A DNA stretch of 62,983 bases, the filler included. It is 10 parts of 10 records of this genome, joined end to end, with 100 filler letters (N's around TTAATTAATTAA, not from the genome) between each part and the next. Parts side by side here need not be neighbours in the genome. Positions count along the whole stretch, not along the records: positions 21,704 to 40,046 come from SRR15195285_276; 9 more parts are not named here. The stretch is one strand, 5' to 3'. The position numbers were made by a program, and so were the translations under genes. A model generated the notes under the pieces. It did not search any database. It was given only the letters and a program-made list of their open reading frames with translations, and was not told the origin of the DNA. Positions 3,394 through 50,699 of this stretch are shown here, piece after piece; positions within the stretch are counted from its first letter, which is position 1, and each line of letters begins with the position of its first letter.

Positions 3394-3461
3394 GTCGGGC
3401 AACAATCTTAAGAAGAGCACCACGCGCGTTTGCACTGTAGGTGGTAGGGAGAGAGCAGTTT

Positions 3462-4508: not shown

Positions 4509-4534
4509 CTGCAGTCGTAGGTAGGCTCAAATGA

Positions 4535-4560
4535 CAGCAGCAGCAGCAGCAGCAGCAGCA
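4535..4560. repeat. (CAG)n tract at contig end
   Basis: Perfect CAG run up to the N spacer. Confidence 0.9.
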
Positions 4561-4660
4561 NNNNNNNNNNNNNNNNNNNNNNNNNNNNNNNNNNNNNNNN
4601 NNNNTTAATTAATTAANNNNNNNNNNNNNNNNNNNNNNNNNNNNNNNNNNNNNNNNNNNN
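4561..4660. other. Artificial contig spacer
   Basis: N44-TTAATTAATTAA-N44, giving stops in all six frames. Confidence 0.99.
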
Positions 4661-10337: not shown

Positions 10338-10437
10338 NNNNNNNNNNNNNNNNNNNNNNNNNNNNNNNNNNNNNNNNNNNNTTAATTAATTAANNNNNNN
10401 NNNNNNNNNNNNNNNNNNNNNNNNNNNNNNNNNNNNN
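10338..10437. other. Artificial contig spacer
   Basis: N44-TTAATTAATTAA-N44. Confidence 0.99.
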
Positions 10438-13600: not shown

Positions 13601-14045
13601 CCCGAATCTGTGAAATCTCGTTAGGCAGCGCAGACAGCCCGTCAATAATCGCCTGGCGCTGCTCCGCAGTGGCAGTCGCCTTGAGCTTCAGTAGCACACA
13701 GTGCGTCAGCGCCGGCGGCGCAGCACGGGCGGGAAGCTTCGCAGCGTCGTTCGGTGTGAACTGCACGGCCGCCCGCTTCGCGAGCACTGGCTTGATTTGC
13801 TCCGCGATCACGCCGAGGTGCGCCGGGTGCTTCGCGTACGCGCTGTACGCTTCCTTCGAGTCGAACTCACCCACGATGCCGATGTGGCAGCCGCTGGGAT
13901 CCAGCCCCAGGTCCACGCCCGCCCGGTACGTCCGGATCTCTGGGATCTGCTCCGGCAGCGCCCGCAGCGCCGCCACAATGGCGTCCTTCTGCTCCGCCGT
14001 CGTGCTCTCTTGCAGCTTCAGCACCACCACGTGCGTGAACGCCAT
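10660..14045 (-). CDS. STT3: Oligosaccharyltransferase catalytic subunit STT3 with two N-terminal Dabb (stress-responsive alpha/beta barrel) domains
   Basis: IHEFDPWFNYR, GGYDNE, SVAEHQ, WWDYGYQI, DGNTWN and DIAK. Intron 10994-11124 gives KKP|YYEEAYTSENMMVRIYKV. Likely start is ATG 14045 (MAFTHVVVLK). The 3' end may have a further exon. Confidence 0.95.
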
Positions 14046-14281: not shown

Positions 14282-14381
14282 NNNNNNNNNNNNNNNNNNN
14301 NNNNNNNNNNNNNNNNNNNNNNNNNTTAATTAATTAANNNNNNNNNNNNNNNNNNNNNNNNNNNNNNNNNNNNNNNNNNNN
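14282..14381. other. Artificial contig spacer
   Basis: N44-TTAATTAATTAA-N44. Confidence 0.99.
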
Positions 14382-18088: not shown

Positions 18089-18188
18089 NNNNNNNNNNNN
18101 NNNNNNNNNNNNNNNNNNNNNNNNNNNNNNNNTTAATTAATTAANNNNNNNNNNNNNNNNNNNNNNNNNNNNNNNNNNNNNNNNNNNN
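18089..18188. other. Artificial contig spacer
   Basis: N44-TTAATTAATTAA-N44. Confidence 0.99.
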
Positions 18189-21603: not shown

Positions 21604-21703
21604 NNNNNNNNNNNNNNNNNNNNNNNNNNNNNNNNNNNNNNNNNNNNTTAATTAATTAANNNNNNNNNNNNNNNNNNNNNNNNNNNNNNNNNNNNNNNNN
21701 NNN
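21604..21703. other. Artificial contig spacer
   Basis: N44-TTAATTAATTAA-N44. Confidence 0.99.
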
Positions 21704-22093: not shown

Positions 22094-25000
22094 ATGGAGC
22101 CGGAGCCGGAGGAGCCGGAACGCCAGGAGGTGGTCGACCTGATTGCCGACGCGCGGCTCGTCGAGAGCGCGGTTGGTGCGGTGCGCAGCCGTCGGCGAGT
22201 TTCGGCCGAAGTGACCGCACAGATCGCCGCTGGGCTCTCCGGTGGTGCCACTGGACGGATCCGAGTGAGCGGCCACCTGCCCGCGACGCTCGAAGTCTAC
22301 GGCCGAATCCTCGACCAGGCTGCAGCCGGCGACTACTACACGGCCCGGCAAACCGCGATCCTCGAAGAGCTCGAGCTGCTGATCTGCGCGTTCGCGGGGC
22401 CCGCGGGATCTACCGACGGGCGCCCGCGCAGCCTGCCCGCGCCGTTCGATGTGGAGAGCCGCAAGCTGGGGCCGAAACGTGGCCTCCTCAGCCACGGCGG
22501 ATCGCGCCGTCGCTTTACGTTTCACGTCGTGTCACCGTTTGCCACGCCAGATGTACTGCCGTCCGGCGTGCAGATGGCGATCGTGGGCTCGCTACCAGAG
22601 CTGGGAGAGGGCAAGCGCCGTCTCGACCCGAAGTACGGCGTGCATCGGATGTGCGCGGCTGGGATCCCGCTTGAACCTGCGAGGCTCCAGCCCAGCAGCC
22701 AGCCCCACTCGCAGACCCGCGTCTTGGAAGCCGTCATAACCTTGCCCGAGGAGCCTGCCCCTGGTGACATTGACTGGAAGCGGATCAGAGCATTAGAGAT
22801 GGCGATTCAGCAGGAGGACCCAAAAGACTTGCTGGCTCAGATGAGGTGCGCGCATAGATGCGCGCAAAAGTACATGGGGTTGGGTGACGACGCCAACGCG
22901 CTGCTGTGCTGCGCCCAAGGCCTGAGGCTGAGGGACAAGGTCGAGGCCCAAACGCGCGACACCAGCGGTTTCTTGGGTCTTGGCCTCGGTGCCAGGGCTG
23001 CGAAGTACACAGCGACCGAGGTAAGGGAGACGGTATGGCAGCTTCAGCACCTTCAACAAGAGTGCAGCGAGACTTGGTTCCGGTTTACTGTGGCAATTCA
23101 ATTTCAAAACCAGTTCATTCTATACAAACCGCAGCGCTCGGACTGGTACAAAGTCACGAGGACTCAGCGGGACTTCCGATTTCTGGATTTCGCACCGGGC
23201 GATTCGTTTCCCCTCAGCCAGCTACAACAGCCGCACATCTTTGAGGCTAGTCAATTGGCAGACGAAGGACAGCTGGAGCATCCGCAGCTTCGGATGCTCA
23301 CATTTGCGTTTTGGTGGCTCGTGGAGTCAAATTCGAACGATGGCAACTTGGCTGGCGCTTTCAAGCGCATCCAGTGCGGTGCAACATATCAGAGGGAGCT
23401 CGGAGCGACGACCCAAATCGACACTTCGGCTGTGCGGGAGACACTGCTACAGCAGGCAAGGGACCTACTGCGCCAGGACACGTCACCCGATAGTCTGACA
23501 CGGCTGCAGAACGGTGTCATGCTTCTATGGCTTGTGGCTGGCCTCGTCGTTGACTCAAACAAAGAGCTTTCAAACAAGGAGATGCGCTTGCTGTGCGAAT
23601 GCCTTGCGCCAGCAGATCTGGATTGGGTCAAGAGCTTTGCCGCTGGCGAGAGGAGGTTTTGTGAGAGGCTACACCAGTGGATTGTGAAGGTTGCGAAGTA
23701 CATGGCACAGCGCGGCGTGGTCACATTCTTACGAGTACTGCCCATGTTGAACACGCTCGACTCGAAAGCGCAATTCCGCACGGAGCTCACTGTGCACGAT
23801 CCGTCTCTGCAATCACACATGATGCCGAGGGCTGAGACGGCAGACACAGAGGCATATCAGGCTGAACTCTTGTTTTTAAGTGATCATGGTCTGTGGGCGA
23901 TCGATGCCGCCATTCCAAAATCCAATCCGCGTACGTCGCTGGCTGGGTGGGCTCCTCTGTTGATGAGTGATGCCACAGCAGTGCTTGCTTTGCTTTCTCA
24001 GGCGGCACGCCTGCCAACGTCTGGACCTGGACGTGATCTCGTGCTGACTACGATGGAAGCAATCCTGAGAGATCGGCAAGACCTTATCCCAGCGTTTTAC
24101 GATGCTGCGGCCCTGCGCGCCCTCGTAGACATTTTGCAGCGCAGCGGTCAACTGGGAGTGGTGGAACAGCAGGTGGATGCAATCATGGCCTATGGGCTCA
24201 ACAACTTACCGGGTGAACCTAAGATGGCTCACATTCGAGAGATCGCTGGAATTCTGGCTGCTTGCCCAGCTTTGATCGGTAGGCAGTGTGCCCACAACCT
24301 GCTGTCAAACCACGAGCTAGACACAGTCGACTTCTCAGGTGCTCCGCTGGAGCTGCTGGGGGTCGTACTTGCACGAACAGACGACAGCAGCCCGGACGAA
24401 TTCAATCGTGCGTTGAGAACGCACCTTACACGTCGATACACAAGCCGCACGATCTCTGATATGGGGCGATGTGCGCGGCATGGAACGGCCCTTATAGCAG
24501 CCGTCCCGCGGTTCCAAGCCACTATCGTCGCTGAATATGAGGAACGACTGAACCGGTTGGAGACACGCAGCAAATTCCGAATCCTTTGTGAAATTGACTT
24601 AGAGGTTTTAGCTCGACCTTTGGCTGCGGTTATCAAGGGCATCGCTCAACGGGAAACAGAGCGCGCCGGAAGTGCGTCCACAGCCGCTCAGCTTGAGGCT
24701 TTCAGCGAGATCAAGCAAGTGGTGTCCGTCTGGCTTCCAGCCATGGACGGTGCTGCAAATTTGCTCTTCGCCATTGCGATGGCTGGGAGGCTGAGCAAGC
24801 ATGGATTTGCGGTGCTCAATCCACGCCCAGGAGTCCTGCCCTTGGCAGACCTACTCGGGCCGTTTGTGATGGATTTCGCAGCATGGTATCATCAAAACAG
24901 TGTGGGCAATGCCGTGTTTCAGTCGGCAGACGCTCGCGAGGCTCACGCATCTATGCAGCTGCTGAAAAAAGTCGCGACTGCAGAGCTGGAGTCTTTGCGG

Positions 25001-28000
25001 CAGAGGACAGTAACTATGGGTAGAGTGCGGCAGCTTTTTTCGAGAGAATATCGTGATCGGGCAAAGGCGTTGCTCTCTCCACCACTGTGCATTGGATACG
25101 ACGATTCACTTGAACGCGAGGTGCAAGCGTCTGTGCAGGAGCTACAAGTGTTCCGTGATACTTTTGATCACTTTAACGATTTTCTGGGCAGTCGTGACGT
25201 ATCACAGTATCTTGCGAATGCGGTTAAGCGAGATTTAGAAAGCTTTAGAAAGCTGAAGCGGAATTGGGATACCCTCCAGATACGCAACTTGCAGGCACAG
25301 GAGTCTCTGCGGCTAGCCGAGCGATACAGACATTTGAAGATTGACAGCACCATTAGAAAACTTCAGCATTTACAGCGCTCCAAACGTCTTTTCCCAGTAC
25401 TTAAAAAGTCTGCCCTGGATGCGTTCATGAAGCCGCGCAGAAGCCTTCAAGAAGTCAGTGCTTACGTCGCAGCAGTCGCGGACGCCCACACTGCGCAGCG
25501 CGGTAGAAATACTAAGCTAGAGATGGCAGACCTATTTGAGTGGTGCTTTGAAGGTATTTTCACGATGTGGAACAATATGCGGCAGGGCTGGTTTGATCTG
25601 ACTGTGACCCTTGATCAGCTGGAGTTGTGCCTTGGCGAGCACGCCCTTACGGACGTCAAAAGCGTGGCATCGGAGGAGTGGCTGCGCGATGAACTAGGAA
25701 TCCTGGCGCAGCCGCTGCCTTCGACCGTGCCTTCAATGGATGCGAGTGGCCAAGTCTATGACACAACGAGTCTGACCGATGCTCTGGATGGATTTCTTGG
25801 ACTTCAAAGTGATCGCGACTTCGTTGTACAGCTGCGGACTCTAGTGAAGATGATGTCAACTGGGACCAAGAAGCTGCAAAACGATGAGAAGGTTAAGGCG
25901 CTGGGAGAACTCGCGGGATCGCTTGATCTTGAGTGGAACTCGACTCGATTAAGAAATACTGCGACTCTCCGCAAGCAGGCCCAATTGCTGATTAACGGCA
26001 TCAATGGAAGACAACGCCAATTTCTTGGCGCCATGTGCACAGAAACGAACATCGAAGTAATCAAGCGCATCCGGCATGACATGCGTCGAGGTGAGGACGG
26101 CGAAACGAAGTGGAAGTTTTTGCACGATGACCAAATCTACACTCTCATTACACAGCAGGTGAATGATGCTGGGCATGACTTTGATGCGCAAGAGCAAGAA
26201 GTGGTCAACGATTTGGGAGACATTCGAGGACTCCTGAAAGTCCTAGTATTCCAGCCTCATCACTCGCTTGATCAATTCTTGCAGTCAATGGACGAGGTGC
26301 AGCTGACAGTTGCAGATCGACTCGAGAGGACGATGTCGTTGATGCAGCACGCTGGCAGAATGATCAAAACAGTACAGCACATTACGACAACGCTCGGCAT
26401 GCGCACTGGAGAAAGGGACGCTAAAGCTCTAGGCGAAGTCCTAGATACAGGTGTTTGGACTTGCCACGAGCCACAGAATGTAAAAGGAGAGCCCGAGCAG
26501 CTCGTCGCATCGACAATATCACTTCGCTACACGCGGAGCAAAGTCATCCACGAGGATGGCTCGAATACACCAGCTGAGACCACCACATTTACTCTGGCCG
26601 AGGCACAGGATTTACGAGACAGGCTCTTTTTAGAGACGGATGATGAACACGACAGCTCTGGTGGTGTCAAAGTGTATCACGAAATGCTGGAGGCTGTACG
26701 AGATTACGCCCTTTCGTTGCTCAAGCTGCACATGGCCGGATTTGTCCACTCGGCGACTGACCGTGGCTACGAAAAGCAAGTTTCTATGGCTGGTGGATCA
26801 CCCGAGGATGTTGTACAGCGGCGTAAGGGTATTGAATGTACTCTGCGCTGGTGGAATGTGGGGATCAAGAGCCTACGAGACAGGTTTCCGAGTCTGAATT
26901 ACTTTACTGTTTCTCAGATCATGCAACTGGAGCGTGACATTGCTGATGTAGGCGGTGGACAGGTGCAGAGCATTGCAAACATACAGTCGGCAGTGGCATT
27001 CATGTCGCGACAAGTTGAGTGGGCGTCGCTGAGAACCTGGCCAGTGCTACTAGCACGTAACTGGGACCCAGACAAAGACTACACGCAAGACACCAGCTTC
27101 TGTGAGGTACAAGCTCGCGTGTTCTTCGATGCGCGTGGCTTTCATGAAAACGATGCTGAGGTACTTTTTACGTGCTTGCGAAATGTCAACGTAATGACTA
27201 CCGGGGGTGCTCAAAACCATCCGGTAATGTGGGCCACGGTGATAAACAACGCCTCAGAAGACCAGCTTCTCAAGATGGTGCGCTTTGCAAACAGGAATTG
27301 CCAGGCTAACGACCCGGCACTGATGGCATCCATGGCTGAGATATGCCAGCAAATATACGAGCATGGCATCGCTCTCGACCGAATGCTACTGCAGGGCTTT
27401 GCCCTTGTTGAGGGCGTGGGTACCTTGCTGCGAGACCTGGACGGCTGTCCTCTGCTTTGTAGGCCACTGCAATCAAAGTTTTCTGGCACCCAGCGTCAGT
27501 CTGGAGTACCGAACGTGGTAACGTGCCGTAGTACCTCTGAGGTGCTACCCACGCTGCTTACCCTCTACGCACCGATGTCCCGCCTTCCGCTAGCTTTCGA
27601 GGTTGAGTTCTGCGGTCTGCGGACAACCTGGGAACGTGTTGAGTTGCTGCTCAAGCGTTGTGTCGATCGGGGCGCGGAAGGGTCCAATTCGCATTTGTTT
27701 TGTCTCGTCGATGCCGACCAGCTCAAACGTGCGGATCAGCTTGAGCTTGTGAATTTTCTGGAGCGGCTTTATCACAACCGACTTCCGTTTCGGATTGTGC
27801 TGCTATGCACCAAACGCGACAACATATACGCAGAAACCTTTCACAAATACGTAGTTGATTGTCCTCCGTTGTCTGTCGCCCTTCAACAGGACTACTGGAA
27901 GCTTGCCACACACCCAAGCTGGGAGAATCAGCAGTCATCCATTCATATCAAGGTGTACACTTCTAAGAAAGTCGGCCTTGGGAAGAGCTACCGGGTTCGC

Positions 28001-31000
28001 AAAGACATCGAGGCCGCCATGCAACGAAATGGTGGGCACACAAGCCTGGCTGACAGCATGCGCGTATTCGTCCCAGTTTTTCAGGATACGGACGCAGATC
28101 AGCTCTATACGTACTTGAAACAAGGTACTGAGTCTGAGGATGGACCTGCGCGTGCGTTTCACATCAATGTTGCGTCGTCAGCAGATCGACCGTTGGATAT
28201 TCTCTTGTTTCGCTTGCTCGTCCTCGATGACCTTGAGACGTCAGCAGGGAAACACTTCAGATTACAACCAAAGCATGCAGTACTGATCGAGCTTGCCTCT
28301 GACAGTGGGAAAGGTGCGGACGAAAAGGAGCCACTTGTCGATCGGTTGACTTTCTGCTCCCGGTTGCCGAAGCACGAGGTTGTCTTGGGTCCGGGAATAC
28401 TAGACACAAGTCTAGATGAAGTTCAGCGCGTTTGCAAATATCTTCACGCTTGGCAAAACGAGCTACTCAAGGCGACGCGAGGCGACCCCTCCCTATTCAA
28501 AGCATGCGATGAGATGGCTGCGGGTAGTATTATGCCACCAGAGGAGTGCCGCCAGCTGCTCGAAGAACACACTCCAAGAGCGACCAAGAACTCGGAACGG
28601 ACTGTGCTTGATGAGTCCATGATTCTAACTCTCAATTTCGTTCAGTTCTTGAACAAATGGCTTGTTATGCTGGAGTCAGAAGGGGAGTTTCTACAACACC
28701 AGTACAGCATGCTTGGCCCTGAGAGCCTGCTAGCTATGAACAAGCCAGACCTGCGGCACAAGCTTGTAGAGTCTTTGATCGGCACGGCTCGCGAGTTTTC
28801 GTCGCGCAGCATATCACCCTTCTCTGTGCTGGAAGAGCAGCTTGAGCTTTTGGACTTGCGCCGGACCATGACCTCTCAGTCAAGAGCTTTCGGACTGATG
28901 GCTGAATGGGCTAAGCGCCCCCTTATTTTGCCATGCAAGCCGTCAAGCTTCAAGCTCGTAGCTATGAACCCTGATGAGATTGACCCAGAAGTCGTAGCCT
29001 ACTGGTCTGAAGGATTCGCACACGGAATGGGATGGAAGTTTGAAAACTACAAGAACATCAGCCAAAAGCAAGCAAAGGAACTACTCTGTGAGATCATGCA
29101 CGTCAAGGAGGCGGAGATTGGCAACATTGACGATTCGTTTGTGCTGACAATCGACAATATCATGAAGATGCTGGCGGTGTGGTTCCGTGTCGGTAGTAAG
29201 ATCCCCGTGGTCATTATGGGTGAAACTGGCTGTGGCAAGACGTTCAGTATCAGCTACTTGGCAGCCTTCCTCAACATTGCTTTCCACAAGCTCGACGTGC
29301 ATGGGGGAATCTCAGATGAGGATGTTGTAGATTTTATGCTTACGAAGGTTTTGCCCGATTGTTTGATGAGCCCAGACCAACCCGTTTGGTGCTTTCTAGA
29401 CGAAATAAACACCTGTGACTCGCTCGGCCTGTTTAAGGAAATGATTTGCGACAAGTCGATGAAAGGGTCCGTTCTTCCGGACAATCTTGTCATTCTAGCA
29501 GCATGCAATCCATATCGCTATCAGCCGAAGGAAAGCAAGCCATCTGCTGGCTTGCAGTTGGCTGGCAGCACACCTGTCGGGGAGCGCCTGGTGTATGTGG
29601 TCAGACAGCTTCCAGAGACACTCTATGAGTTCATCTGGGATTACGGAACGCTCAACCGGGAAGAGGAGAAGCGTTACATAGAGTCCATGCTAAAGAAATC
29701 CTTTTCTGATACCAACAGAGCAGCGGTAGCTGGCCGTGTCTTGAAGTTGAGCCCAGAAGACGAGAGGCGTTTTGTCAGGCTTTTTGCTGAGATGGTCGGC
29801 CAAAGCCACGATTTCATTCGGAAGGCACACGGCGATGAGGTGAGCGTGGTGAGCTTGCGAGACGTGGCACGGTGCATCAAACTCTTTCAGTGGTTCTTTG
29901 ACACTCTTGACAAAATTCGACAGGTCCAGCGCGAGGATGCGGAGGACGATGGTGAAGACGGTGCAGCGACCCCCACAACGCCGACAGAAGCAGGATCCGG
30001 CGAGACACAAGGTTCGGCGCATTCGAAGACTGACGCGGTAGAGAGCATGGTCTTGGCGGTCGCGCACTGCTACCACTTTCGACTGAACGAAGAGGGCCAC
30101 TATACGCGCCAGCAGTTTCGCAGCGAAATGGAGCAACGACTTCAGGGAAGCCGACTATCGAGCGAACAGGCAGATTGGAAAGATCCTGGCTGGTTTGAGA
30201 TGGTTCTCAAAAAGCAGATGCAGTGGTTCATCGATGCAATGAAACCATTGCCCGCTGGTGTGGCCGACAACGCAGCACTACAAGAGAATGTGTTCATGAT
30301 GATCGTTTGCATTCTCAACAAGATCGCTATAATGGTCGTAGGGAAGCCTGGCTCGTCAAAGACGCTTGCTACGCAGCTGATCCGGGACGCATTCTCGCTT
30401 GCACAAAAGAGCGACAAGTTTGAACGCGTCGGCTTCCCGTGTCTAGAGCTGTTTCCGTACCAATGTAGCCAGCACTCTACAGCACACGATATCGAAGACA
30501 AATTTGACAAGGCAATTAAAGTGGAATCGGGAGCCGGCGTTCGCAAACTGTCGTGTGTGGTGCTGGACGAAGTGGGCTTAGCAGAAGATGCAAAGGCCAT
30601 GCCCCTGAAGGTGCTGCATAAACTACTCGAGAAACCCAAGTGTGCGTTCGTGGGGTTGAGCAATTGGCAGTTGGATCCTGCGAAGATGAATCGTGCTGTG
30701 TACCTGCTGCGTCCGGATACCGAAAGCCGCGATGATTTGCAGCAAACAGCTCTGGAGCTGGTAAAAGGAGCACAGCAAGCAGGCACCCGTGCCAACACTG
30801 CACTAATAGAGGAGCTAGAAAAAATCACCAACGCGTACATTCAGATGGTCGAGACTGAGAGAGCCACCAAAATGTACAAAGAACGAGAGGGTGGCCATTT
30901 CACTGGCCTGCGTGACTTTTACTCTTTCATCAAGCTGATCGACAAGAGTATCCGTCAGAACGGTGGGGAACTGAATCCTGAAATTCTCTTGCATGCGATG

Positions 31001-34000
31001 TTCCGTTCGTTTGGCGGGTTCAGACAGCAAGATCTCCTTAATATCCTGGCACAGCCATTTTGGGACTTCTGCCAGGGACTTTTGACAGAGTACGATGGTC
31101 CTGAGGACATTGTTAGATACCGCACTGAGAACATTGTGAACTTGTTGCGATCCAACGTCGACGACGTGGCGAAGGAAGAAGTCGGTGGTGACGTCGGGGC
31201 ACGTCATCTCATGATTTTGTCTCAGCACGTCACCTCCGCCCTGTCGATATTGGAGGACGAGGGCATTGTGGTGCGTCAAGGCGACTTGAGGAAGGGCGAC
31301 AAGAGGAAAAGTGCCAAGGTGCTTTGTGGATCTCCGTTTCGAGATGATCAGACCAGCCTTGGCATGTTCAGTCGTGTGACACAGGTCAAGACTTGCATGG
31401 AGGCTGGCAGGACGGTTGTGTTGCTTCATCAAGACGGGATTTACGAAAGTTTGTACGATATGTTGAACCAAAACTACACAGACGGCGTCTCCGGAGGCAA
31501 ATTTTGTCGACTTGCGATCGGCTCGCGCTCACGGCAATGCGAGGTACATCCTAATTTTCGATGCATAGTTATTGTAGATTCCAAGCAAGCGTGGACAAAG
31601 CTGCCATCTCCGCTGCTCAACCGGTTCGAAAAGATGTGTGTAAGCGTTGGCGATCTGCTCAACGCAGAATTCCGTGAGTACGAGAGAGAGCTGTGGAATC
31701 TCTGTCGTGAGTTTGCACAGACGGGTGCCGTGCGTGCACTTGAATGCACCCTCAGCGACCTAAGCGATAGCGACGCATGTCAGTATTTGCGTAGTGTGTT
31801 CGTTGGATTCAACGAGGAGCTACTGCCTTCGATCTTGTTGCAGATCTGGCGTTCGTCGACTGGGGAATCCCGTGAGGAAATCATCGCACAGACACAGTGC
31901 AAACTATTGCATCTTGCTACTCCAGAGGCAGTGGTCAAGTATGCAACGCGACGAGGACTACTGGGGCACAGCGCGCCTGAGGTTGGTGACCAGCTATGGG
32001 GAGAGGTGCATCCACGGTGCGTATACTTCGAAGACCAGATCCACTCGAGCTTGCGCGAAATGATTGACGCATTGCCGGAGGACAAAGTCTCGGGAATGGT
32101 TCTGACATTCTCGAGCTTCGCGACAGATCTTGGGCGCCACTTTGAAGACGCGTCCTTCAAAACACCGATGATTCTGGACCTGCCAGAGTTCCAGACAGAG
32201 GACCAATGCCGCTTGGGCCTAGAGAAGTTTTTCGATCCTGATCCTGCTGATCGGGCCCGCTACGACACACTTATCCTCCGGTGTGAATTGAGGGACGAAG
32301 TATCATTGAAACAAATTGACCGCGCGAAGCAGTTGTGCCAGGAGTTACGAGAGGAACACGATGCACGTGGGAGAGTCGTCCTTGTTGTTTACTTGGAAAA
32401 AGATGGGAACGTAGACGGCGTTCGGCTGTCTTACACATTTCACCAGGATTCGTGGTTTTACACAGTAATTGACGCAGTCGAGAGTGCGCATGTACAGCAA
32501 CACCCCGCTGTCCGCGACGTCCTAGACACCCAACACTTGGTAGAAGTCCTGCAACGTCAAGACAATCTGGTCGTGCGACAGATAATCAAGCAGTCATTTA
32601 GAAAATGCTTGTCGAGGCTTCAATATTCTGCCAAGGTTGACGTTCATATCCAGATCAAGCAAATGGAAACGCTGATCGAAGACGAGAGTGACTTTCTTCG
32701 CCCTGTCCTTGAAGTTCTCTCGGACAGCTGGAACAGCCACGACATGGACAACAGTGCACGCGATCCGTGGTTTAGCTCCATTGGCCTGATCGATATTGCC
32801 AAAGCGGGTACGTACCGTGGCGCACTGTTCGAAGCAGTTGAGCAGACGGTCACGGCGTCCTTCACACGCTTGCTGGCTGGGATTGACCGGGGTGGAAATC
32901 TAGCGGTTTATGTTTCCGGTGCTGCACACGTGAAGCATCTTTGGTTGGCGATCTTCGGTGACAGGTCGTTGTGGTCACTCCCGCCCGCGAACAGTAGCTC
33001 AATTTATGCAGTCGAAACAGGTTCGCAGAACCATAAGTTCAAGGCATCATTTCCTTTTTTCTCCAACATTTCGGGTTTTATCGAGCGCTTTTACGACACA
33101 GGGATCGTTGCACAGCTTGTGCATAATACAGACGGAGGCAAGCGTGACGAGTGGGCTGAAATGTGGCGACTGCTATGTGAAAGGAAAGAGATGCAAGCGT
33201 TTAACGAAGCCATGCAAGAACAATCCCTTCAAGATCTTCAGGATTCGCGGAAGCTATATCTCAGAGACGCCGTAGATCTACACAGCGAACGGTTTTGCGC
33301 CCACAGCAATGGCTGGGAAGGATATTCGGAGCTTGCGCAAGCATTTGTACTGCGAGCAATCATGGACGAAAAAAAGGGGAGCAGCGACAGCTGCTTCGCC
33401 GCCGAGAGCTGCATTTCTGACATTCACATGGCGATTGCACGGTGTGAGGCCATCGCACGTCCATGCTTGTGCGTTTTGGAGAAGCTCCGTGGGGCAGCTA
33501 CCGAGGTGCGTCGCTCGATGGGCATGTACCTTGAGGAAGAGGGGGACAAGGGACTAATTCACCTAGTCGTGGATTCGGTTGTTCAGAACACTCTCGTAGA
33601 GCTGAAACGAATTGTTGATACACAATCTTCGACGGAGTTCTCCACAATTATCGAACAGGTTCGATCACCAATGCTTGAAATCTGGGAGTGGATTCGTGCT
33701 AAGACCAATAGAGCCACCGATCGAGATTTCTCTTCAATTGACAAGATCCGAGGCGATGTGACAAAACCGATTCGACTTGGTGATGTCGTGAAGCCCACAA
33801 TGGAAGGCGCCGTTAATGTTCGCTCGGAGGAGTGGGTCTCTGACACGGAGTGGCATCAGAGGCACGCGGTGGTTCTACAGAATGGCAAGGACACGTGTCT
33901 CCACATTTTCCCCGACAGCATCAGCTTTGACTCTATGTCAATCGCTGTTCCGGTGACATCAGTGCATTGTACCATCAGTCCAGAGGAGCAAAAGACTTAC

Positions 34001-37000
34001 GAGGTTCATCATGTCGACCTGGGCACCAGCACGCAGGCGTCGGCCCCAGATCCAGGTCTTCTAGCGCTAGCTGAGCCAGAGCCAGAGTCGGATGCAGTGA
34101 CTACGGAGTCTCGCGCCAAGGCTGCCCGAGAGAGTCCGCGCTGGGTCCGCAGCAATGAGACTTCCGAGTGCATGCTGTGCGCGCAAACGTTCGGTTTGTT
34201 CAACGGCAAACATCACTGCAGAGCATGCGGCTGGGCCATTTGCGATGGCTGCTCTAAGTCTCTCATATTGGACAGATGGTTGTCGCAAGACAAACCCCAC
34301 CGCATCCACGAGACCCGATCAACAGAGCCGCTGCGAGTGTGTAAGGTGTGCTTCGTAAACGTACCGCTAGAAGCTGAGGCGGAGCGCCAACTCGCAATAG
34401 ATGGTCGTCAATTCTCAGATCAAGAACAACTAATTCTTCGTGTTGGCGGCACCGAGCATGTGTTGCCCAGCTCGTCGACTGTCAACCAGGTCAAAGAGTT
34501 GCTTCGGGAACAAACGGGACGCGACTGGTGGGAAATCCATTTCGATGGGCAGCAAATCTGGGACAAGGACGAAGTGCTTGCAAGCCGTGCGATGGCTGAC
34601 TCTGAAGTCGGCCATTGGCATCGCCGAAGGTTCGAGAACATGACCACTGCAGGTGATGTAACTGTTTGCATAGACTGGCAAAAGATGAAGGCGCACTCAT
34701 CCACGAAAGACTTGGTCGTGGCCATGAACTCGGACCCAAGTGAGCGTGGAAAGTCTGGCTTTAGCATTGCGTGTACTGCCGGGAAGAACGTACTTCGTAT
34801 CGAAACTTCTTCGTCGCTGAAAGATAGCGACGCTACAGATGACAGCCCACCTGATATCCTGCTAGACATCGGAGCGGCCCCGGCAAGTGGTCAGCAGGAC
34901 TCATCGCCCACCGTGGAGAATTGGATGCAGGCGCTGCAATCGACTTCACTAGTTTCGGACGACGAAGAAGCTGTCGATTGTGCCAGTGCGCATAGGGATT
35001 GGAACAAGCTGCTGCTAATACAAGAATACGTCAAGCGCGTGGCACAAATGCTGCAAGCCACAGAGACCGCCGCCACGACATTGTGGAGAGAACTTAAACA
35101 ACCTCGGTTCACGTTCGGAAGTTTGGACATGCTTCGCGCGGTTGTTCGCGTTGTCAGCGGCACAGATTCACTAGCACCAGGTATTTCCACACAGGTGGCT
35201 CGTGAAATTGTGCAAGAGTTCTGTGAGCACTATGTCATTCGATATGCCTTCCGAGAGCCCCCGTGCGTGTCGATCGTGCAATTTGCGATACATGCTTGCG
35301 ATCTATGTCGTATGAAAGGTCAAGGAAACGGCCAGAATCCATGGCTTGCGCTGCGGGAGAAAACAGATTCACAGCGTTTCGATTTGATACCTGATCAAGA
35401 TGCACAATGTTGCTTCCAGTGCAGTCGTGCATTCGACATGTACTCAGAGCGAAAACATCGCTGCCGTTTGTGCTCGGAGTTCTTTTGCGAACCGTGCAGC
35501 AGTCATGAGCACGTTTTGGACGAGAGCAGTGCGACAGCTGAGCGAGTCTGCGACAGGTGCTACGCTGTCACAGCTGCTCTCGACACCATCAACAGCACGA
35601 TGCCACGAGCTCGCAGCCGCAACGATGGCTTGCTGCGCACACGCTCTGCGATTGAATACCAGTTTGTAGAATGCTACGAAAACGAGGAGATTGAGTGGGG
35701 CCCGCTCGTCACGCCATCAGAAGAATTGTTCCGTGCACCCACGGCTCCGGAACGGCGAAAAAGAGCCCAGTATACTTCGGAGGATCGCAGCAACACGCCA
35801 GCAAACTTTTCGCCAGAAAGAAATCCGGAGCTGACCTGGCAATCCAGAGGGAAGACAGACGGAAGTGACGAGCAAGGCTGGGAGTATGCATTTAGCTTTC
35901 GGTCTGCGAAGTCCGGTTGGGGTCCTGTCATGAAGACACAAATGCCAAAATCTTGGGTCCGGAGGCGGAAGCTGTACGCACCTTCAGCTGGCCGACTTCC
36001 GTCCGCCCCTGCCGAGTTCAGCGAGGATTATTCACCGTCGACAGTGAACTACCTGGGTGATCAGGTCACCAAGAAATTCAAGCGCGCTATGACACAGGTG
36101 AAAGTCGAGGTTGAAAGTATGATGGCGGAGAAAAACACTAGCCTCGAGAGGCAGGGACTAAGTAACATGAATCTGTCAGCTACGCATGCTGCCCGGGACA
36201 CTGCATCCGGTGGCGCTGATGATGCCGATGATGCCACAGGCAGCTTCTCTCTGCTAGGGCCACTGACAAGCCGTGCACGACACGCTCTTATTCGAGAAGT
36301 ACTCTCTCTGATTGACTATGCGTCACCTCACTGCTCGGTGAGACAGTTGGTCGACCGCGGCATCTACGAAGCCTTCCTTAGAACGGGGCACACCATTGAC
36401 AACCCAACGACTTTACGAGTGGTCGAAGCTTTCGAAGATATGACAGACCTCTCGCCTGAAGAGATGGTTGCTTGGATGGATGAAGCAGCCAAGACGACTC
36501 AGCGGATGAGAACGGCGATGTGGGCACGCAGCACTGCACGGTGTCGTGCCATCGTGGCGGCGGCTGCGGAGGACGCTGTCAACTTGGGACGTATGGACCC
36601 GTTGTCTTTTCCTGTAAAATCGCAGATCTTTCAGCGACTTCTGGCGCAAGGCCTACCAGGGCCTCAGCAGCCCAGAGCGCTGCAGGTCCTGTTTGCAAAA
36701 CACGTTGTCGCGCGAAAGGGTACACAAGAAGCTTTCGAACTCCTCTTGGACAAATCACAACATGCCGAACATCCTACGCTCATGTGCCCTGCTCTGGCAG
36801 ACGACCTTGAGTCGCTGTCCAAAAGGGCGAACACATCTGAAGACGAGGCCGAATATAAGCCCAGTTTTGATCCGTTGCTCGGCATTTCAGACCAAGCAAC
36901 CTACCAACGAACCTATGTAGAAGTCATGGAACCAATCGTATTGGAAGGAGCCCTAACTAAAGCGAGTGCTGAAAGCGCACGAGAAAAGCTCATTGGTACT

Positions 37001-40000
37001 CTCAGTCGAAACACAGGAACGAGACAAAATGCGAACCTCCACACCGAGCTGGTGATGTGTACGTTCCACAACGTCTTCCTGCGGACATCTCGCGGTATCA
37101 CCCCGAAAATTGAGGAGGTGGTTGCTCGGGCAAAGCTGTCCGCTGAAACTGCGCGGTTGTTGCGATTCCTCGCGACAAGCGGCGGTGATGGAGTCTTGGC
37201 CAGTCTGGGTGTGCTGCCGCAGCTAAGGGCGGAGACAACGTTGTCGGACATCTTGATGCTGCGGCCAATATTTCATCTTGCAGCCGTGTGTACATCGGAA
37301 GTGAGTGGTGGCTTTCAGTTGGCGGAGATGTTATCAAATCCAGCAAGCTTCATTGACAAATTTCTTCCCGCGATGCCGGAGGATGAGTTGACAGCGATGT
37401 ATGCACTGCTCGGTGATGTTGCCATTTACTTGTGCCCAAATGGCCACAGATATACGGTCGCTAACTGCACGAGAACGGACGAGTCAGCTATCTGTGGAGA
37501 ACCTGGTTGTGGCGCAGCCATTGGCAACGCCAAAGGCAAGAAGTCACACACTCTGGCCGAGGGCAACACCTTGTTCGGATATACCAATCCAAACCGTGTC
37601 AACCAGGGCGCAAAGAGTCATGACCTCCAGCTCTTCGATGTCCACGGCAACCGCGTCGTTGGTGGGCGGGACCTGTCCAAACCGGAACTGATTAAAGGGT
37701 ACGGATTTAGTGACCCCAGTGCCGACGCAGAGAAACTTCCCACCACAGCTGCCCGCGAGCTGACCCCTTCGAGCACACGTGTGCTGCGCTACATTGTGCA
37801 TGGCCTTCTCCTTGTCTCACATGCTCTCAATTTTGGAGAAGTATCATCCAAAGGCGTTGAGCAGCTGCTCGGGGACAAGGTGAACCCCAAAGGCGAGCCA
37901 CGGGCTTGCAGAAAGTTCTTGGTGAACCACATGCGAAATGACTTTGATGTCCTGCTGAGAGTTTTAACATGCAGTGCAGAGGACCTGAGCGTTCGCCTTC
38001 ATCTGTACGTGGACAAGTTTCGATCAGAAATGAAGGCTGCGCAGGGCACGGGGGGAGGTGGCAGCGATGAAGATCGCCGCAATGCGTTCGAATCGTGGTT
38101 CCAAGCAGCTGTGTTAGAACCGGTCAATGCCTCTATAAAAGCAGATGTGAGTCGGGTCAAGTCTCGCTCGAACTCCCAGTCGAAGCCGAATGAGCTACAG
38201 ATTGAAATCGAGGAAGAACGTGACGTTGACCAGCTGCCCAGTGATTATCGCAACCAGCAGACGCCCTTGCTACTTCGATTCCGCAAACGCCCATCCTATC
38301 AGGCAATGGTTGAAAGCTTCAGCATGGAGGCTTCGGCCGCACAGGGAAAGCATCCTCTTCTCAAGTTGTTCACAGAGCATGAGCCCCATCTCCAAGCTCA
38401 TCGGCATATGTTGGCTGTCTGTCGTTGGTTGCGATTGATCAAGCGGCATTACAGCAAGAAGATCGACCGAGTAGAGGCGGAAGCGACGACTGTCCGCGAG
38501 GCGTTGGAGAAAATCGATACAGAGAACCGTTCTGAATGGGACAACGCGTGGACTGCATTCCGGGACGCATGGAAGGAGATTCGCCCACATGTGACGCGCT
38601 ACCAGTGTCACGAGGAAGAACGTGGACTGCTTCCGCCGATGGATGAAGAGAGTAAGCTGGCCATGTCAATGCCACACGACAAAGAGGACCACCCGTCGCT
38701 GTACCCGTTTATTTTACTCAGCTGGTTTGTACAGACGCACAATGATTTTTTGGACGATGCCACTGCGGCGGCACGTGACAAGGAGCAGGTGCAGGAAGAA
38801 ACAGCTGCGGAGCAGAATAAAAAGGAGTGGCAACAGTTGGAAGATCGCGACTTCTTGGCTTTTTCGCCAGACGAGCTTGAGAAACTAGTCGCTGACTGTG
38901 CTCAACAGCCAGATCAGTATGGTCGCGGTAAGGAGCTTAGTTTCGAGTACAACGCTATCGAAGACTGGATTACAGAGACGCTTCTCACCTCTAAGAGTAC
39001 ACTGGCGCCAGTGAGCACCCTTGGAAAGAATACCTGTGACACATTTGAATTCATTGGGGAGATCATGCATGTTGAAGCTGACAATACAATTGGCGGGATC
39101 GAGCAGCTGCCTTTAGAAAATCGCCTGATTCTGGAAATTCTGGAGGAACAGTCGACTCTGCAAAAAGCTGCACGACTCCAGCAACGCGTCAGGGAGTGTA
39201 TTGGTTTTCTGCAGAGCACTCAAGGTGATGGCATGGTGACCCTCAGTCACTATTGCCAGTACACTCTGCGTCTGCGCGAGGACGAGATCGTTGACCTGTA
39301 CGCAGCGGATGGCACTGCTGGCTGTGTGATGCGCTCTGTGCGGCTGTGCCACCTTAAAGCACTTGACGAACTGCTGGATCAACGACTTCATGGCGATGGC
39401 TTGGCGAGCATAGCCCCGAAGTACAAGCAGCGCATGGCGGACGATGTCTCACGAGAGGTGGGCGCGTTTGCTACCAATCTGACTTTAGTGCAGCTGAAAA
39501 TGCTTTTGGCAGGCTGGAGGAGATTCATGAGACAATTCATGAGTGATTTTCAGGAGGCCTACCCCGAGGACACGTCGTTGAAAGACTTTCTGGAATACAC
39601 ACCGTGTGACGATGTGGGGGATCAGCTGCTCGCGGACGAGGATTGGTTCCAACGCTTCCCAACGAGTGTGCTGCTCGCTCACTGCGCCGAATCATTCAGT
39701 GCCATCAATGGGATGCATCAGGAGCGCTCGCAGGCTCGCGAGGCGCCAGCTCAGCATGCGCCAGCTCAGCATGCTGAGTTGGAGCCGGAGCCCGAACCTG
39801 ACCTTGAGCTTGAGTTTGAACCTGAGCCTGAACCTGAACCACACGCAGAGCCGGAAACTGGCGCGCCAGATGCAAGAAACGAGGATCTGTGCAGAAAGCT
39901 GAAAGAAGCCCAAGATACTTTGAGTGCGTTGAAAACACTGGGCCTCGATGCGATTGAACTGAAACCAGTCCAGGCTGAAGTTGACATCTTAGCAGCACAG

Positions 40001-40046
40001 CTAGCAAGCGCAGAGGCTGCGGACTCAGCAGAATCTGCTGCGCCTG
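22094..40046 (+). CDS. RNF213/mysterin-like giant AAA+ ATPase and RZ-finger E3 ligase (~6000 aa, single exon, no stop before contig end)
   Basis: CBM20-like start (FTFHVVS...IVGSLPELG, about 22513-22610). LNYFT motif, YTSKKVGLGKS (~27955), Walker A MGETGCGKT (~29216) with FLDEINT, AACNPYR, VSLRDV, Walker A GKPGSSKT (~30340) with VLDEVGLAE, LKVLH, SNW.LDPAKMNRA, GLRDFYS, YESLYDMLNQNY and PLLNRFEK. RZ finger YLCPNGH...C...C...C...IG...H at about 37427-37560. Confidence 0.93.
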
Positions 40047-40146
40047 NNNNNNNNNNNNNNNNNNNNNNNNNNNNNNNNNNNNNNNNNNNNTTAATTAATT
40101 AANNNNNNNNNNNNNNNNNNNNNNNNNNNNNNNNNNNNNNNNNNNN
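40047..40146. other. Artificial contig spacer
   Basis: N44-TTAATTAATTAA-N44. Confidence 0.99.
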
Positions 40147-44589: not shown

Positions 44590-44689
44590 NNNNNNNNNNN
44601 NNNNNNNNNNNNNNNNNNNNNNNNNNNNNNNNNTTAATTAATTAANNNNNNNNNNNNNNNNNNNNNNNNNNNNNNNNNNNNNNNNNNNN
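44590..44689. other. Artificial contig spacer
   Basis: N44-TTAATTAATTAA-N44. Confidence 0.99.
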
Positions 44690-50599: not shown

Positions 50600-50699
50600 N
50601 NNNNNNNNNNNNNNNNNNNNNNNNNNNNNNNNNNNNNNNNNNNTTAATTAATTAANNNNNNNNNNNNNNNNNNNNNNNNNNNNNNNNNNNNNNNNNNNN
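50600..50699. other. Artificial contig spacer
   Basis: N44-TTAATTAATTAA-N44. Confidence 0.99.

What the first reader, a model, noticed from the sequence alone, without database searches (positions are those of the whole stretch)
22094..40046. RNF213/mysterin-like cell-autonomous immunity machine in a non-animal-looking protist
Seen: a ~6000-aa ORF with the RNF213 layout in order: CBM20-like N-terminus, helical stalk, AAA core with two intact Walker A/B pairs, E3 module and RZ finger. Known: mammalian RNF213 ubiquitylates bacterial LPS and pathogen-containing compartments through its RZ finger. Inference: this protist has an ATP-driven ubiquitin-tagging system, possibly used against ingested bacteria, escaped prey or viruses.
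Basis: partly seen in the sequence, partly recalled or inferred. Interest (0 to 1): 0.88.

Follow-up and report, generated by a model that had tools for sequence, protein, structure and literature searches.

The report
RING-less RNF213 relative carrying FYVE fingers
A marine single-celled eukaryote encodes, in one uninterrupted 18-kb reading frame, a genuine relative of the human immune ubiquitin ligase RNF213 that keeps the ATP motor and the catalytic RZ zinc finger but has two membrane-lipid-type FYVE fingers where animals have the RING finger.

Summary
The giant ORF is real (window 22094-40046, +). It is cut by the end of its contig, because the window is a chain of contigs joined by N/TTAATTAATTAA linkers. 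A 100% identical public protein (P0002) runs on to 6192 aa and ends in a UBA domain.

Confirmed RNF213 features:
- Solved RNF213 structures match at E=1e-130, collinearly.
- Both Walker A/B pairs are intact and align with the human ones.
- The RZ finger keeps all four metal ligands and the Cys/His pair.
- No midasin or dynein chain matched.

Not confirmed:
- There is no RING, U-box or IBR.
- The "CBM20-like" N-terminus is only a 30-residue motif and remains inconclusive.

New here: about 650 extra residues sit where the RING/U-box lies in relatives. They hold two FYVE fingers, a probable ubiquitin-like fold and a probable DysF (peroxin/ferlin)-like segment. The database searches found this module in only three full-length proteins, a diverged fourth (P0005) and three fragments.

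The gene is not animal contamination. In an AAA-core tree it falls with protist and green-alga sequences, and near-identical DNA occurs in seawater metagenomes.

RNF213-like genes in protists are already in databases and in earlier scan notes, so this is a new variant of a known kind. A defence role is inference only.

The parts
22094..40046 (+). Giant intronless ORF (5984 aa within the window), 3'-truncated by the contig end. The full protein P0002 is 6192 aa counted from GTG 22070.
22508..22615 (+). Motif RFTFHVV...IVGSLPELGEG (aa 147-182), resembling the first strands of the CBM20 domain of protist relatives. Not significant.
27437..32419 (+). Dynein-like AAA core (aa ~1790-3450), collinear with human and mouse RNF213.
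   Evidence: E=1e-130; main stretch 353.6 bits
27965..27988 (+). P-loop KKVGLGKS (aa 1966-1973), aligned to human ...RAGVGKS. Read as AAA2 because it lies upstream of the two Walker-bearing modules.
29219..29242 (+). Walker A GETGCGKT (aa 2384-2391), first active AAA module.
29390..29410 (+). Walker B CFLDEIN (aa 2441-2447).
30341..30364 (+). Walker A GKPGSSKT (aa 2758-2765). K2764 aligns to human K2775.
30557..30577 (+). Walker B VVLDEVG (aa 2830-2836).
32156..33085 (+). Conserved region after the AAA ring (aa 3363-3672). It is homologous to protist P0011, and through P0011 to human RNF213 residues about 3534-3898.
33767..36019 (+). Clade-specific module (aa ~3900-4650) lying in the variable gap where relatives carry a RING or U-box.
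34139..34360 (+). FYVE finger 1 (aa 4024-4097). All 8 Cys are present. The basic motif reads GKHHCR, and there is an 11-residue insert relative to Vps27.
34421..34594 (+). Probable ubiquitin-like fold (aa ~4118-4175).
   Evidence: Ubiquitin D/FAT10, E 0.13-0.16; strand-strand-helix-strand pattern, pLDDT about 58-63
35387..35569 (+). FYVE finger 2 (aa ~4440-4500). All 8 Cys are present and the motif reads RKHRCR. It occupies the slot of the U-box of relatives.
35657..35989 (+). Probable DysF (peroxin/ferlin)-like segment (aa ~4530-4640; GWEYAFSF...SWVRRRKL).
   Evidence: 0.93, 210 of 256 features, PF06398 clusters; dysferlin 4cah, E=5.1
37412..37570 (+). RZ finger (aa 5115-5167) with C5122, H5126, C5133, C5142, C5147 and H5160.
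37223..39724 (+). E3-shell and C-terminal domain region (aa 5052-5885), conserved across the family.
40047..40146 (.). Contig-joining linker (N run, TTAATTAATTAA, N run). It is not biological sequence.

Best explanation
The gene encodes a RING-less member of the RNF213 (mysterin) family of giant AAA+/RZ-finger ubiquitin ligases, from a marine non-animal eukaryote.

Shown:
- A dynein-like AAA core with a conserved P-loop in the upstream module and intact Walker A and B motifs in the next two.
- Conserved E3 flanks and C-terminal domain.
- An RZ finger with all four metal ligands plus the Cys (C5133) and a His (H5160) matching the proposed human nucleophile and general base.
- Two FYVE fingers.
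- A C-terminal UBA domain, present in the full-length database copy.

Inferred: ATP binding and hydrolysis in the ring controls the enzyme. Ubiquitin is taken from an E2 onto C5133 and passed to substrate, as proposed for human RNF213, where the RING is dispensable. The FYVE fingers, and possibly the DysF-like segment, bring the enzyme to PI3P-bearing or damaged endomembranes such as phagosomes, endosomes and autophagic membranes. The UBA binds ubiquitin already deposited, which would favour cooperative coating.

Whether the purpose is defence, handling of prey in phagosomes, or endolysosomal quality control is open.
For: Family membership:
- phmmer against solved structures gave E=1.3e-130 to human RNF213 over five collinear stretches. 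At E<=0.01 only RNF213 (9 sequences) and FYVE proteins (13) matched.
- The Walker motifs align residue for residue.
- RZ finger: Pfam E=3.6e-10, alignment to human residues, and residue roles from passages of PMC11549300.
- C-terminal homology is strong through a relative. Ours aa 5052-5867 matches P0011 at E=1.7e-54, and P0011 matches human RNF213 at E=1.6e-49.

Accessory domains:
- FYVE: Pfam E=4.4e-28 with 2 stretches. Vps27, EEA1 and RUFY1 FYVE domains match at E 1e-7 to 1e-9, with all Cys pairs aligned.
- UBA: Pfam E=1.3e-9.

The module is not an assembly chimera:
- The same order is kept in P0003 (80% identity), P0004 (58%) and, without FYVE1, P0005 (28%).
- A 6064-nt metagenome contig spans 31592-37655 with 53 differences.

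Other support:
- The human RING is dispensable for bacterial ubiquitylation while the RZ finger is required (PMC11549300, passages).
- RNA-library contigs from 3 runs of 2 studies lie on the gene with no joints.
Against: - No biochemical or cellular test exists.
- Both FYVE fingers depart from the motif seen in the solved PI3P-binding domains aligned. FYVE1 reads GKHHCR in place of R(R/K)HHCR. FYVE2 reads RKHRCR and lacks the Trp that relatives P0004 and P0122 have. PI3P binding is therefore uncertain.
- The DysF and ubiquitin-like assignments rest on sub-threshold hits (E=5.1; E=0.13) and on a language-model lead whose recognition value (1517) is below the tool's reliability mark of 2300.
- Both AF2 models failed (mean pLDDT 36.1 and 41.9), so no fold comparison was possible.
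- The alignment of H5160 to human H4537 needs a 4-residue insertion and is my reading, not a tool alignment.
- RNA-library contigs can contain DNA, and no silent stretch was laid as a control, so expression is only hinted.
Confidence: 0.6

Rival explanations
1. Same family, but the two 'FYVE' fingers no longer bind PI3P. As cross-brace zinc fingers sitting in or near the RING/U-box slot, they would act as structural elements or as a substitute docking site for an E2 or another partner. Targeting would then be done elsewhere, for example by the N-terminus.
For: - Motif deviations: GKHHCR in FYVE1; RKHRCR with no Trp in FYVE2.
- FYVE2 lies after the conserved W(N/E)KLL helix, where U-box-bearing relatives have their U-box.
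- P0005 has lost FYVE1 and has a degenerate FYVE2 yet keeps the rest of the module.
Against: - Pfam scores are well above the FYVE cut-off (97.6 bits against 27.8) and no RING or U-box model hit.
- Relatives P0004 and P0122 keep canonical RKHHCR/RRHHCR and W..D motifs, so PI3P binding is likely ancestral.
- The interior hhalign confidence is close to 0, so the slot equivalence is positional only.
Confidence: 0.2
2. A catalytically silent scaffold: an RNF213-like AAA+ protein that has lost ligase function along with the RING.
For: - There is no RING, U-box or IBR.
- Earlier scan notes describe Naegleria paralogues lacking both fingers (unchecked here).
Against: - All RZ metal ligands and the Cys equivalent to human C4516 are kept.
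- Both Walker pairs are intact.
- The RZ finger is kept in all four clade members by motif search.
- In the human enzyme the RZ finger, not the RING, carries the activity.
Confidence: 0.07
3. Artefact: an assembly chimera that glued FYVE-protein DNA into an RNF213-like gene, or a contig from a contaminating animal.
For: - The window is a patchwork of short contigs.
- The public twin's label looks like a short-read assembler node name.
- One metagenome contig shows an odd joint from 34087 to 22096.
Against: - Independent contigs carry the same architecture: P0003 on a 21,342-bp contig, and P0004.
- A metagenome contig of 6064 nt crosses the whole module and the RZ finger collinearly.
- The nearest animal sequences reach only about 33% identity and sit across a 100*-supported split.
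- The reading frame is open throughout.
Confidence: 0.02
4. Not RNF213-like at all: a midasin- or dynein-type AAA protein with chance zinc fingers.
For: Pfam names the P-loop hits AAA_5 (dynein-related) and AAA_7.
Against: No midasin or dynein chain reached E<=0.01, while RNF213 reached 1e-130 with collinear N-terminal, AAA, RZ and C-terminal stretches.
Confidence: 0.01

Closest known systems
Mammalian RNF213 / mysterin (PDB 6TAX, 7OIK, 8S24, 9JW1)
   Same: - Collinear AAA core.
- A conserved P-loop upstream of two modules with Walker A and B motifs.
- E3 flanking regions and C-terminal domain.
- RZ finger with the same ligand spacing and the Cys at the position of human C4516.
   Different: - No RING.
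- About 650 extra residues holding two FYVE fingers, a probable ubiquitin-like fold and a probable DysF-like segment.
- A C-terminal UBA domain.
- CBM20 not demonstrable.
- About 1000 residues longer.
- Intronless.
- Sequence identity in the AAA core was not computed against vertebrates. Against invertebrate relatives it is about 32-33%.
Protist RNF213-like proteins already in databases, e.g. Thecamonas trahens AMSG_01915 (P0046), Physarum (P0012), chlorarachniophyte proteins (P0020, P0023), and the Naegleria genes of earlier scan notes
   Same: - Same family, with RZ finger and AAA core.
- Several are also RING-less by Pfam (P0046 and P0011).
- Naegleria notes e1-670194 and e1-632861 describe similar genes.
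   Different: - P0046 has a Pfam-significant CBM_20 and a RanBP2 finger.
- P0020, P0023, P0054 and P0088 carry a U-box about 525 residues before the RZ finger.
- Of the best 120 family hits, only the 3 FYVE-annotated ones (P0002-P0004) carry the module; P0005 also does, without FYVE1.
ZNFX1
   Same: It shares the RZ-type zinc finger. The Pfam family PF20173 was defined from RNF213 and ZNFX1 (PMC11549300 passage).
   Different: ZNFX1 is an SF1 helicase (abstract of 10.1101/2025.10.14.682297). No ZNFX1 chain matched our RZ region at E<=1.
TECPR1 (DysF domains sensing exposed sphingomyelin on damaged endomembranes)
   Same: Possible DysF-type segment joined to a conjugation machine. TECPR1's DysF recognises sphingomyelin on damaged membranes (abstracts of PMC10476172 and PMC10476171, search listing).
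   Different: There is no sequence-significant link. TECPR1 works with ATG5-ATG12 on ATG8, not ubiquitin. The likeness is functional analogy only.
FYVE proteins of the endosomal and autophagy system (EEA1, Hrs/Vps27, RUFY1, WDFY3)
   Same: Both fingers match these solved FYVE domains at E 1e-6 to 1e-9, with all zinc-binding Cys pairs aligned.
   Different: The basic PI3P-pocket motif is altered in both fingers. FYVE1 has an insert. The fingers are embedded in a 6000-aa ligase.

Membership tests
RNF213 family | Dynein-like AAA core collinear with RNF213 and closer to it than to midasin or dynein | tested here: met
   E=1.3e-130, main stretch 353.6 bits over query residues 826-1940 of the piece. 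No midasin or dynein at E<=0.01.
RNF213 family | Two AAA modules with intact Walker A and Walker B | tested here: met
   GETGCGKT/CFLDE and GKPGSSKT/VVLDE align to the human motifs. K2764 aligns to human K2775 (allele listed in PMC11549300).
RNF213 family | RZ finger with four metal ligands plus a Cys nucleophile and a His | tested here: met
   (PF20173, E=3.6e-10). alignment: C5122, H5126, C5133, C5142 and C5147 match human C4505, H4509, C4516, C4525 and C4528 (roles). H5160 matches H4537 by my reading, with a 4-residue insertion.
RNF213 family | RING finger in the E3 module | tested here: not met
   No RING, U-box or IBR model hit at E<=0.1 over aa 2509-5992 or at E<=10 over aa 3900-4800. 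There was no C3HC4 pattern, and the only Cys/His clusters are the two FYVE fingers and the RZ finger. The RING is dispensable in the human enzyme and is also absent by Pfam in protist members P0046 and P0011. I therefore file the protein in the family but not as an orthologue-grade 'RNF213'.
RNF213 family | N-terminal CBM20 domain | tested here: inconclusive
   Pfam gave none at E<=10. BLAST gave E=0.14 and 0.058 to the CBM20 of P0046 and P0017. A profile of 8 family CBM20s gave E=4.0 over aa 150-182. The Atlas ranked it 29th at 0.75. AF2 pLDDT over the strands was 23-36.
RNF213 family | Conserved E3 flanks and C-terminal domain | tested here: met
   The direct match is weak (10 bits, i-E 0.42). 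The transitive match is strong: ours to P0011 at E=1.7e-54 and 5.3e-24, and P0011 to human at E=1.6e-49 and 2.2e-14.
RNF213 family | Ubiquitylation of LPS or pathogen surfaces; ATP-dependent coat formation | not testable with these tools
   Biochemical and cellular property; no computation bears on it.
FYVE zinc finger (PF01363) | Eight zinc-binding Cys in four pairs; score above the Pfam cut-off | tested here: met
   97.6 bits against a cut-off of 27.8, 2 stretches. The alignments show all four Cys pairs in both fingers.
FYVE zinc finger (PF01363) | PI3P-pocket motif R(R/K)HHCR, as seen in the aligned solved domains, and the N-terminal W..D motif (names recalled) | tested here: inconclusive
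   FYVE1 reads GKHHCR and W-V-R-S. FYVE2 reads RKHRCR and I-P-D-Q-D. Relatives P0004 and P0122 are canonical.
DysF / peroxin-ferlin domain | Sequence or fold match to DysF domains | tested here: inconclusive
   Atlas features scored 0.93 with 210 of 256 shared, and 21 of 30 hits were PF06398-bearing clusters, but recognition was 1517, below 2300. The PDB profile hit to dysferlin 4cah had E=5.1. Pfam gave no hit. HMMER over 1.84 billion proteins found only a clade fragment and one spurious repeat protein.
UBA domain | Pfam match above the cut-off | tested here: met
   PF00627, E=1.3e-9, 38.1 bits against a cut-off of 22.4, at the C-terminus of P0002. It lies beyond the window's contig end.

The most novel reading that the evidence does not exclude
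In the RNF213 family the RING position is a swappable cassette: RING in vertebrates, U-box in chlorarachniophyte-type homologues, nothing detectable in several protists. In this marine clade it was replaced by a lipid-reading module made of two FYVE fingers, a ubiquitin-like fold and a DysF-like segment.

The enzyme would thus carry its own address for PI3P-positive or ruptured phagosomes and ubiquitylate their contents or membrane through the RZ finger. That would be a pre-animal, self-targeting form of the ubiquitin coat that mammalian cells build on invading bacteria, and it would place RZ-type non-protein ubiquitylation in the common toolkit of phagotrophic eukaryotes.
Probability: 0.25. 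Interest if true: 0.8.

Novelty: new variant of a known kind. Interest (0 to 1): 0.55.

Why it matters
RNF213 is studied almost only in mammals, where it is the main moyamoya susceptibility gene and builds ubiquitin coats on bacteria and parasite vacuoles. How it finds its targets is unsettled (PMC11549300, passages read).

A natural variant that drops the RING, keeps the RZ finger and ATPase sites, and adds recognisable membrane-lipid readers supports the view that the RZ finger is the core ligase of the family. It also suggests the targeting parts are interchangeable.

It offers a testable model for recruitment: FYVE/PI3P, and possibly DysF/damaged membrane. It also extends the family's accessory repertoire.

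The limit is that protist RNF213-like genes are already present, unnamed, in public databases and in earlier notes of this scan. I found no paper on them. None of the 7 listed of 8 papers holding 'RNF213' and 'protist', and none of the 12 listed of 29 holding 'RNF213' and 'FYVE', concerns a protist homologue by title or abstract start. In the two multi-term searches that ranked by term count, none of the 25 listed papers each held 'RNF213' at all.

Tried and rejected
1. AF2 of the module (aa 3890-4660, 4-sequence alignment) gave mean pLDDT 36.1. AF2 of the N-terminus (aa 135-430, 2 sequences) gave 41.9. Both are too poor for fold search, which I therefore did not run.

2. CBM20 tests all fell below significance.

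3. HMMER of the DysF-like segment against 1.84 billion representatives found 2 hits. One is a fragment of the same clade (P0122) and one is an unrelated repeat protein (P0123). So there is no bridge to known DysF proteins.

4. I looked for a stand-alone or fused copy of the module elsewhere. In the near-length search, 3 of 3618 candidates passed, all from the clade. In the shorter-length search, 7 of 8000 scored candidates passed: two clade fragments and five generic FYVE proteins. One of these, P0127, proved to match by its FYVE domain only.

5. I found no TerD hit in Pfam at E<=10 or in the PDB profile search at E<=10, so the idea is unsupported. Gene neighbours could not be examined because the contig holds only this gene.

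6. Whole-genome search: no genome is held for this window.

7. hhalign between our clade and the U-box clade was confident only at the two flanks. The interior, including FYVE2 over the U-box, has confidence 0-4 of 9.

8. Parts of the gene had no RNA-library contig cover (X17: 12 of 30 bins empty; X18: 19 of 30). That proves nothing.

9. I did not place the organism taxonomically beyond 'non-animal eukaryote', and I did not pursue the origin of the database label.

Full report
**What is in the window.** The window is not one piece of genome. TTAATTAATTAA flanked by runs of 44 N occurs 9 times (0 expected), cutting it into 10 contigs. The finding's contig is 21704-40046. On its + strand there is one open frame from GTG 22070 (first ATG 22094, in a CCATGG context) to the last base before the linker. 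The frame therefore does not end at 40046; it is cut by the contig end.

A public protein, P0002, matches all 5991 translated residues after the start codon and continues to 6192 aa. The break falls inside a roughly 60-residue repeat (…AEAADSAESAAPDAGKEKLRRKL…), which probably stopped the assembler. Residue numbers below are those of P0002 (nt = 22070 + 3·(aa−1)).

**Family.** I ran phmmer with aa 1509-5992 against all solved structures. It returned human and mouse RNF213 at E=1.3e-130 in five collinear stretches. The only other matches at E<=0.01 were 13 FYVE proteins, with no midasin and no dynein. The N-terminal 2000 aa also hit only RNF213, at aa 1790-1968.

The alignment pairs our motifs with human ones as follows:

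| Ours | Human | Note |
|---|---|---|
| GETGCGKT (2384) | GETGCGKT | Walker A |
| CFLDE (2441) | FFDE | Walker B |
| GKPGSSKT (2758) | GKPGSSKS | Walker A |
| VVLDEVGLAED (2830) | VVLDEVGLAED | Walker B |
| GLGKS (1969) | GVGKS | P-loop of the upstream module |

Counting along the printed alignment, and using an offset I checked against C4505, puts our K2764 opposite human K2775. That is the Walker A lysine mutated in the alleles listed in PMC11549300. So "two intact Walker A/B pairs" is correct.

**RZ finger.** Pfam PF20173 matches at E=3.6e-10. In the alignment to human RNF213, YLCPNGHRYTVANCTRTDESAICGEPGCGAAIG pairs with YTCPNGHPCSVGECGRPMEQSICID--CHAPIG. C5122, H5126, C5142 and C5147 therefore match the four metal ligands C4505, H4509, C4525 and C4528. 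C5133 matches C4516, the proposed ubiquitin-accepting cysteine. Residue roles come from passages of PMC11549300. H5160 is a plausible counterpart of H4537, but only if four extra residues are allowed; that is my reading.

**E3 flanks and C-terminal domain.** The direct match to human RNF213 is weak (10 bits). The link through a protist member is strong. Ours aa 3363-3672 and 5052-5867 match P0011 at E=5e-24 and 2e-54. P0011 matches human RNF213 residues about 3534-3898 and 4273-5113 at E=2e-14 and 2e-49.

**What is missing.** There is no RING. No RING, U-box or IBR model hits, and there is no C3HC4 pattern. A direct look at aa 3600-5300 shows only three Cys/His clusters: two FYVE fingers and the RZ finger.

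This is not disqualifying for function. In the human enzyme, deletion of the RING leaves bacterial ubiquitylation intact, while RZ mutants abolish it (PMC11549300). Protist members P0046 (Thecamonas) and P0011 also lack a Pfam-detectable RING.

**CBM20.** Thecamonas P0046 has a Pfam-significant CBM_20 at aa 17-108. Eight RZ-bearing relatives share it. Ours shares only the opening strands, "TFHVV…GSLPELGE":
- BLAST E=0.14 and 0.058.
- Family profile E=4.
- No Pfam hit.
- Atlas rank 29 at 0.75.
- The AF2 model shows strands interrupted by a better-predicted helical insert, but the strands have pLDDT 23-36.

The verdict is inconclusive. It may be a degenerate, split CBM20.

All other family members align with ours up to about aa 3670 and again from about aa 5040. 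The stretch between is variable and about 650 residues longer in ours. Using the human anchors (3614-3686 and 4443-4536) and the RING residue H4014, the RING neighbourhood projects onto our aa ~3970-4630. This is inference from offsets.

That stretch holds these elements:
- **FYVE1 (4024-4097) and FYVE2 (~4440-4500).** Pfam gives E=4.4e-28 with 2 stretches. Both match Vps27, EEA1 and RUFY1 FYVE domains at E 1e-7 to 1e-9 with all four Cys pairs.
- **A probable ubiquitin-like fold at ~4120-4170.** The profile hits Ubiquitin D/FAT10 at E 0.13-0.16. AF2 shows a strand-strand-helix-strand pattern at pLDDT about 58-63.
- **Beta-rich segments of unknown fold** at ~3905-3965 and ~4195-4250.
- **A Trp/Arg-rich segment at ~4530-4640** (GWEYAFSF…SWVRRRKL). 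The language-model search places it with "Peroxin/Ferlin domain" clusters at 0.93, with 210 of 256 features shared and 21 of 30 hits, but with a low recognition value. The PDB profile search touches dysferlin's DysF domain at the same place at E=5.1. I call it DysF-like, probable but unproven.

**The RING slot.** In four U-box-bearing relatives, the U-box sits about 525 residues before the RZ cysteine. In human RNF213, H4014 lies 491 residues before C4505. hhalign aligns a conserved helix just upstream: WNKLLL in ours at about aa 4310, WEKLLF in P0023. FYVE2 follows this helix where the U-box follows it in P0023. The interior confidence is near zero, so this is a positional argument only.

**Is the module real?** Yes.
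- P0003 (80% identity over the module, on a 21,342-bp contig) and P0004 (58%) keep every element in order.
- P0005 (28%) lacks FYVE1 but keeps the rest.
- A 6064-nt contig from a marine metagenome run spans 31592-37655 collinearly with 53 differences.

The module is also rare. A search of 5.8 billion clustered proteins with the module found only P0002-P0004 in the near-length class (3 of 3618 candidates). Among shorter proteins it found only two clade fragments plus generic FYVE proteins. HMMER over 1.84 billion representatives added one more clade fragment, P0122, whose FYVE2 is canonical (RRHHCR, W..D).

**C-terminus.** After the conserved C-terminal domain come Glu/Pro-rich repeats, two copies of a helical repeat, and a UBA domain (PF00627, E=1.3e-9). 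The UBA lies outside the window. P0003 aligns over it at 61% identity.

**Organism and contamination.**
- The other contigs carry ordinary eukaryotic genes in long uninterrupted frames: STT3, tubulin cofactor C, and PX, cNMP-binding and EF-hand domains.
- In a FastTree of the AAA core, our protein groups with P0003, P0004 and P0005 (100*), then with P0006/P0007, Cymbomonas and Physarum. I selected 54 of the 120 listed homologues; the 66 dropped were mostly unnamed sequences of the ~3.9-kb invertebrate-like group. Our clade sits on the opposite side of a 100* split from the cnidarian, echinoderm, amphioxus and mollusc sequences.
- Caveats on the tree: FastTree, midpoint root, no vertebrate RNF213, and several long branches.
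- Near-identical DNA is held by 19 listed runs from 13 studies. The 8 runs holding at least half of the sampled words are labelled marine or seawater metagenome. Only X1, X12, X17 and X18 were laid.

Animal contamination is rejected.

**Expression.** Contigs of three metatranscriptomic libraries (2 studies) lie on the gene at 95-100% identity. X12 covers 28 of 30 bins, X17 18 and X18 11. No joints were seen, which fits an intronless transcript. Such libraries can contain DNA and I laid no silent control, so this is a hint, not proof.

**How it most likely works.**

Shown: the parts list above.

Inferred from the mammalian enzyme (PMC11549300): nucleotide state in the two active AAA modules gates the enzyme, and ubiquitin passes from an E2 to C5133 and then to substrate.

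Inferred from domain identity: the FYVE fingers direct the enzyme to PI3P-rich membranes such as phagosomes, endosomes and autophagic membranes. A DysF-like segment could add sensitivity to damaged membranes, as TECPR1's DysF does for exposed sphingomyelin (abstracts only). The UBA would bind deposited ubiquitin and favour cooperative coating.

Weak points: both FYVE motifs deviate from those of the aligned solved domains (GKHHCR; RKHRCR without the Trp), although relatives are canonical. Whether the role is defence, prey handling or organelle quality control cannot be told from sequence.

**Novelty.** RNF213-like giants with RZ fingers are widespread outside animals. Named hits include Thecamonas, Physarum, Cymbomonas, chlorarachniophytes and a glomeromycete fungus. 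By the precomputed annotations, 30 of the best 120 hits carry PF20173, 5 a U-box and 3 a FYVE (my count). Earlier notes of this scan describe Naegleria examples, including RING-less ones (I did not re-test them). My paper searches found nothing on protist homologues or on a FYVE-bearing RNF213 (judged from listings and abstract starts only). Supplements were not consulted.

The finding is therefore a solid new variant of a known kind. The family assignment is right, the layout claim is partly wrong, and the interesting point is the replacement of the RING region by lipid-reader domains.

Noticed in passing
window 4561-4660, 10338-10437, 14282-14381, 18089-18188, 21604-21703, 40047-40146, 44590-44689, 50600-50699, 58856-58955: Nine identical artificial linkers (44 N, TTAATTAATTAA, 44 N) join ten separate contigs. 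Gene order and neighbourhood across them mean nothing.
   Followed up: yes
window 11121-14045 (-): A 974-aa ORF fuses two Dabb (stress-responsive A/B barrel) domains (E=3e-41) to the N-terminus of an STT3 oligosaccharyltransferase (E=5e-56). This is an unusual fusion.
   Followed up: no
window 51479-58414 (-): A 2311-aa uninterrupted ORF whose only Pfam hit is a weak PDZ (E=1.9e-5). Otherwise unexplained.
   Followed up: no
window 40481-43417 (+): A 978-aa ORF on the next contig, with strong purine skew. It has only sub-threshold repeat-type hits (apolipoprotein-like, baculovirus PEP C-terminus), probably a coiled-coil or repeat protein.
   Followed up: no
window 7910-10261 (-): A 783-aa ORF combining a cyclic-nucleotide-binding domain with EF-hands.
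   Followed up: no
window 34087 and 22096 (run X1, table 5c): One low-depth metagenome contig joins position 34087 back to 22096 with 8 unrelated letters between. It is probably a chimeric contig, not a rearrangement.
   Followed up: no
P0124 (213 aa) and P0125 (256 aa): Two short fragments are 78-80% identical to the module, so they resemble P0003 rather than the window's protein. P0124 carries the same data-set prefix as P0002 but at very low coverage, which suggests a second related strain or paralogue in that data set.
   Followed up: no
P0013-P0119 group: Most of the best 120 AAA-core hits (about 3.7-4.9 kb; cnidarian, echinoderm, amphioxus and mollusc, plus many unnamed) show no RZ finger by precomputed Pfam or by my motif search. 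They form a large RZ-less branch of the family in invertebrates.
   Followed up: partly
window 39743-39840 and P0002 aa ~5915-6060: Glu/Pro-rich short tandem repeats and a duplicated ~60-aa helical repeat lie between the C-terminal domain and the UBA. The window's contig ends inside the duplication.
   Followed up: partly
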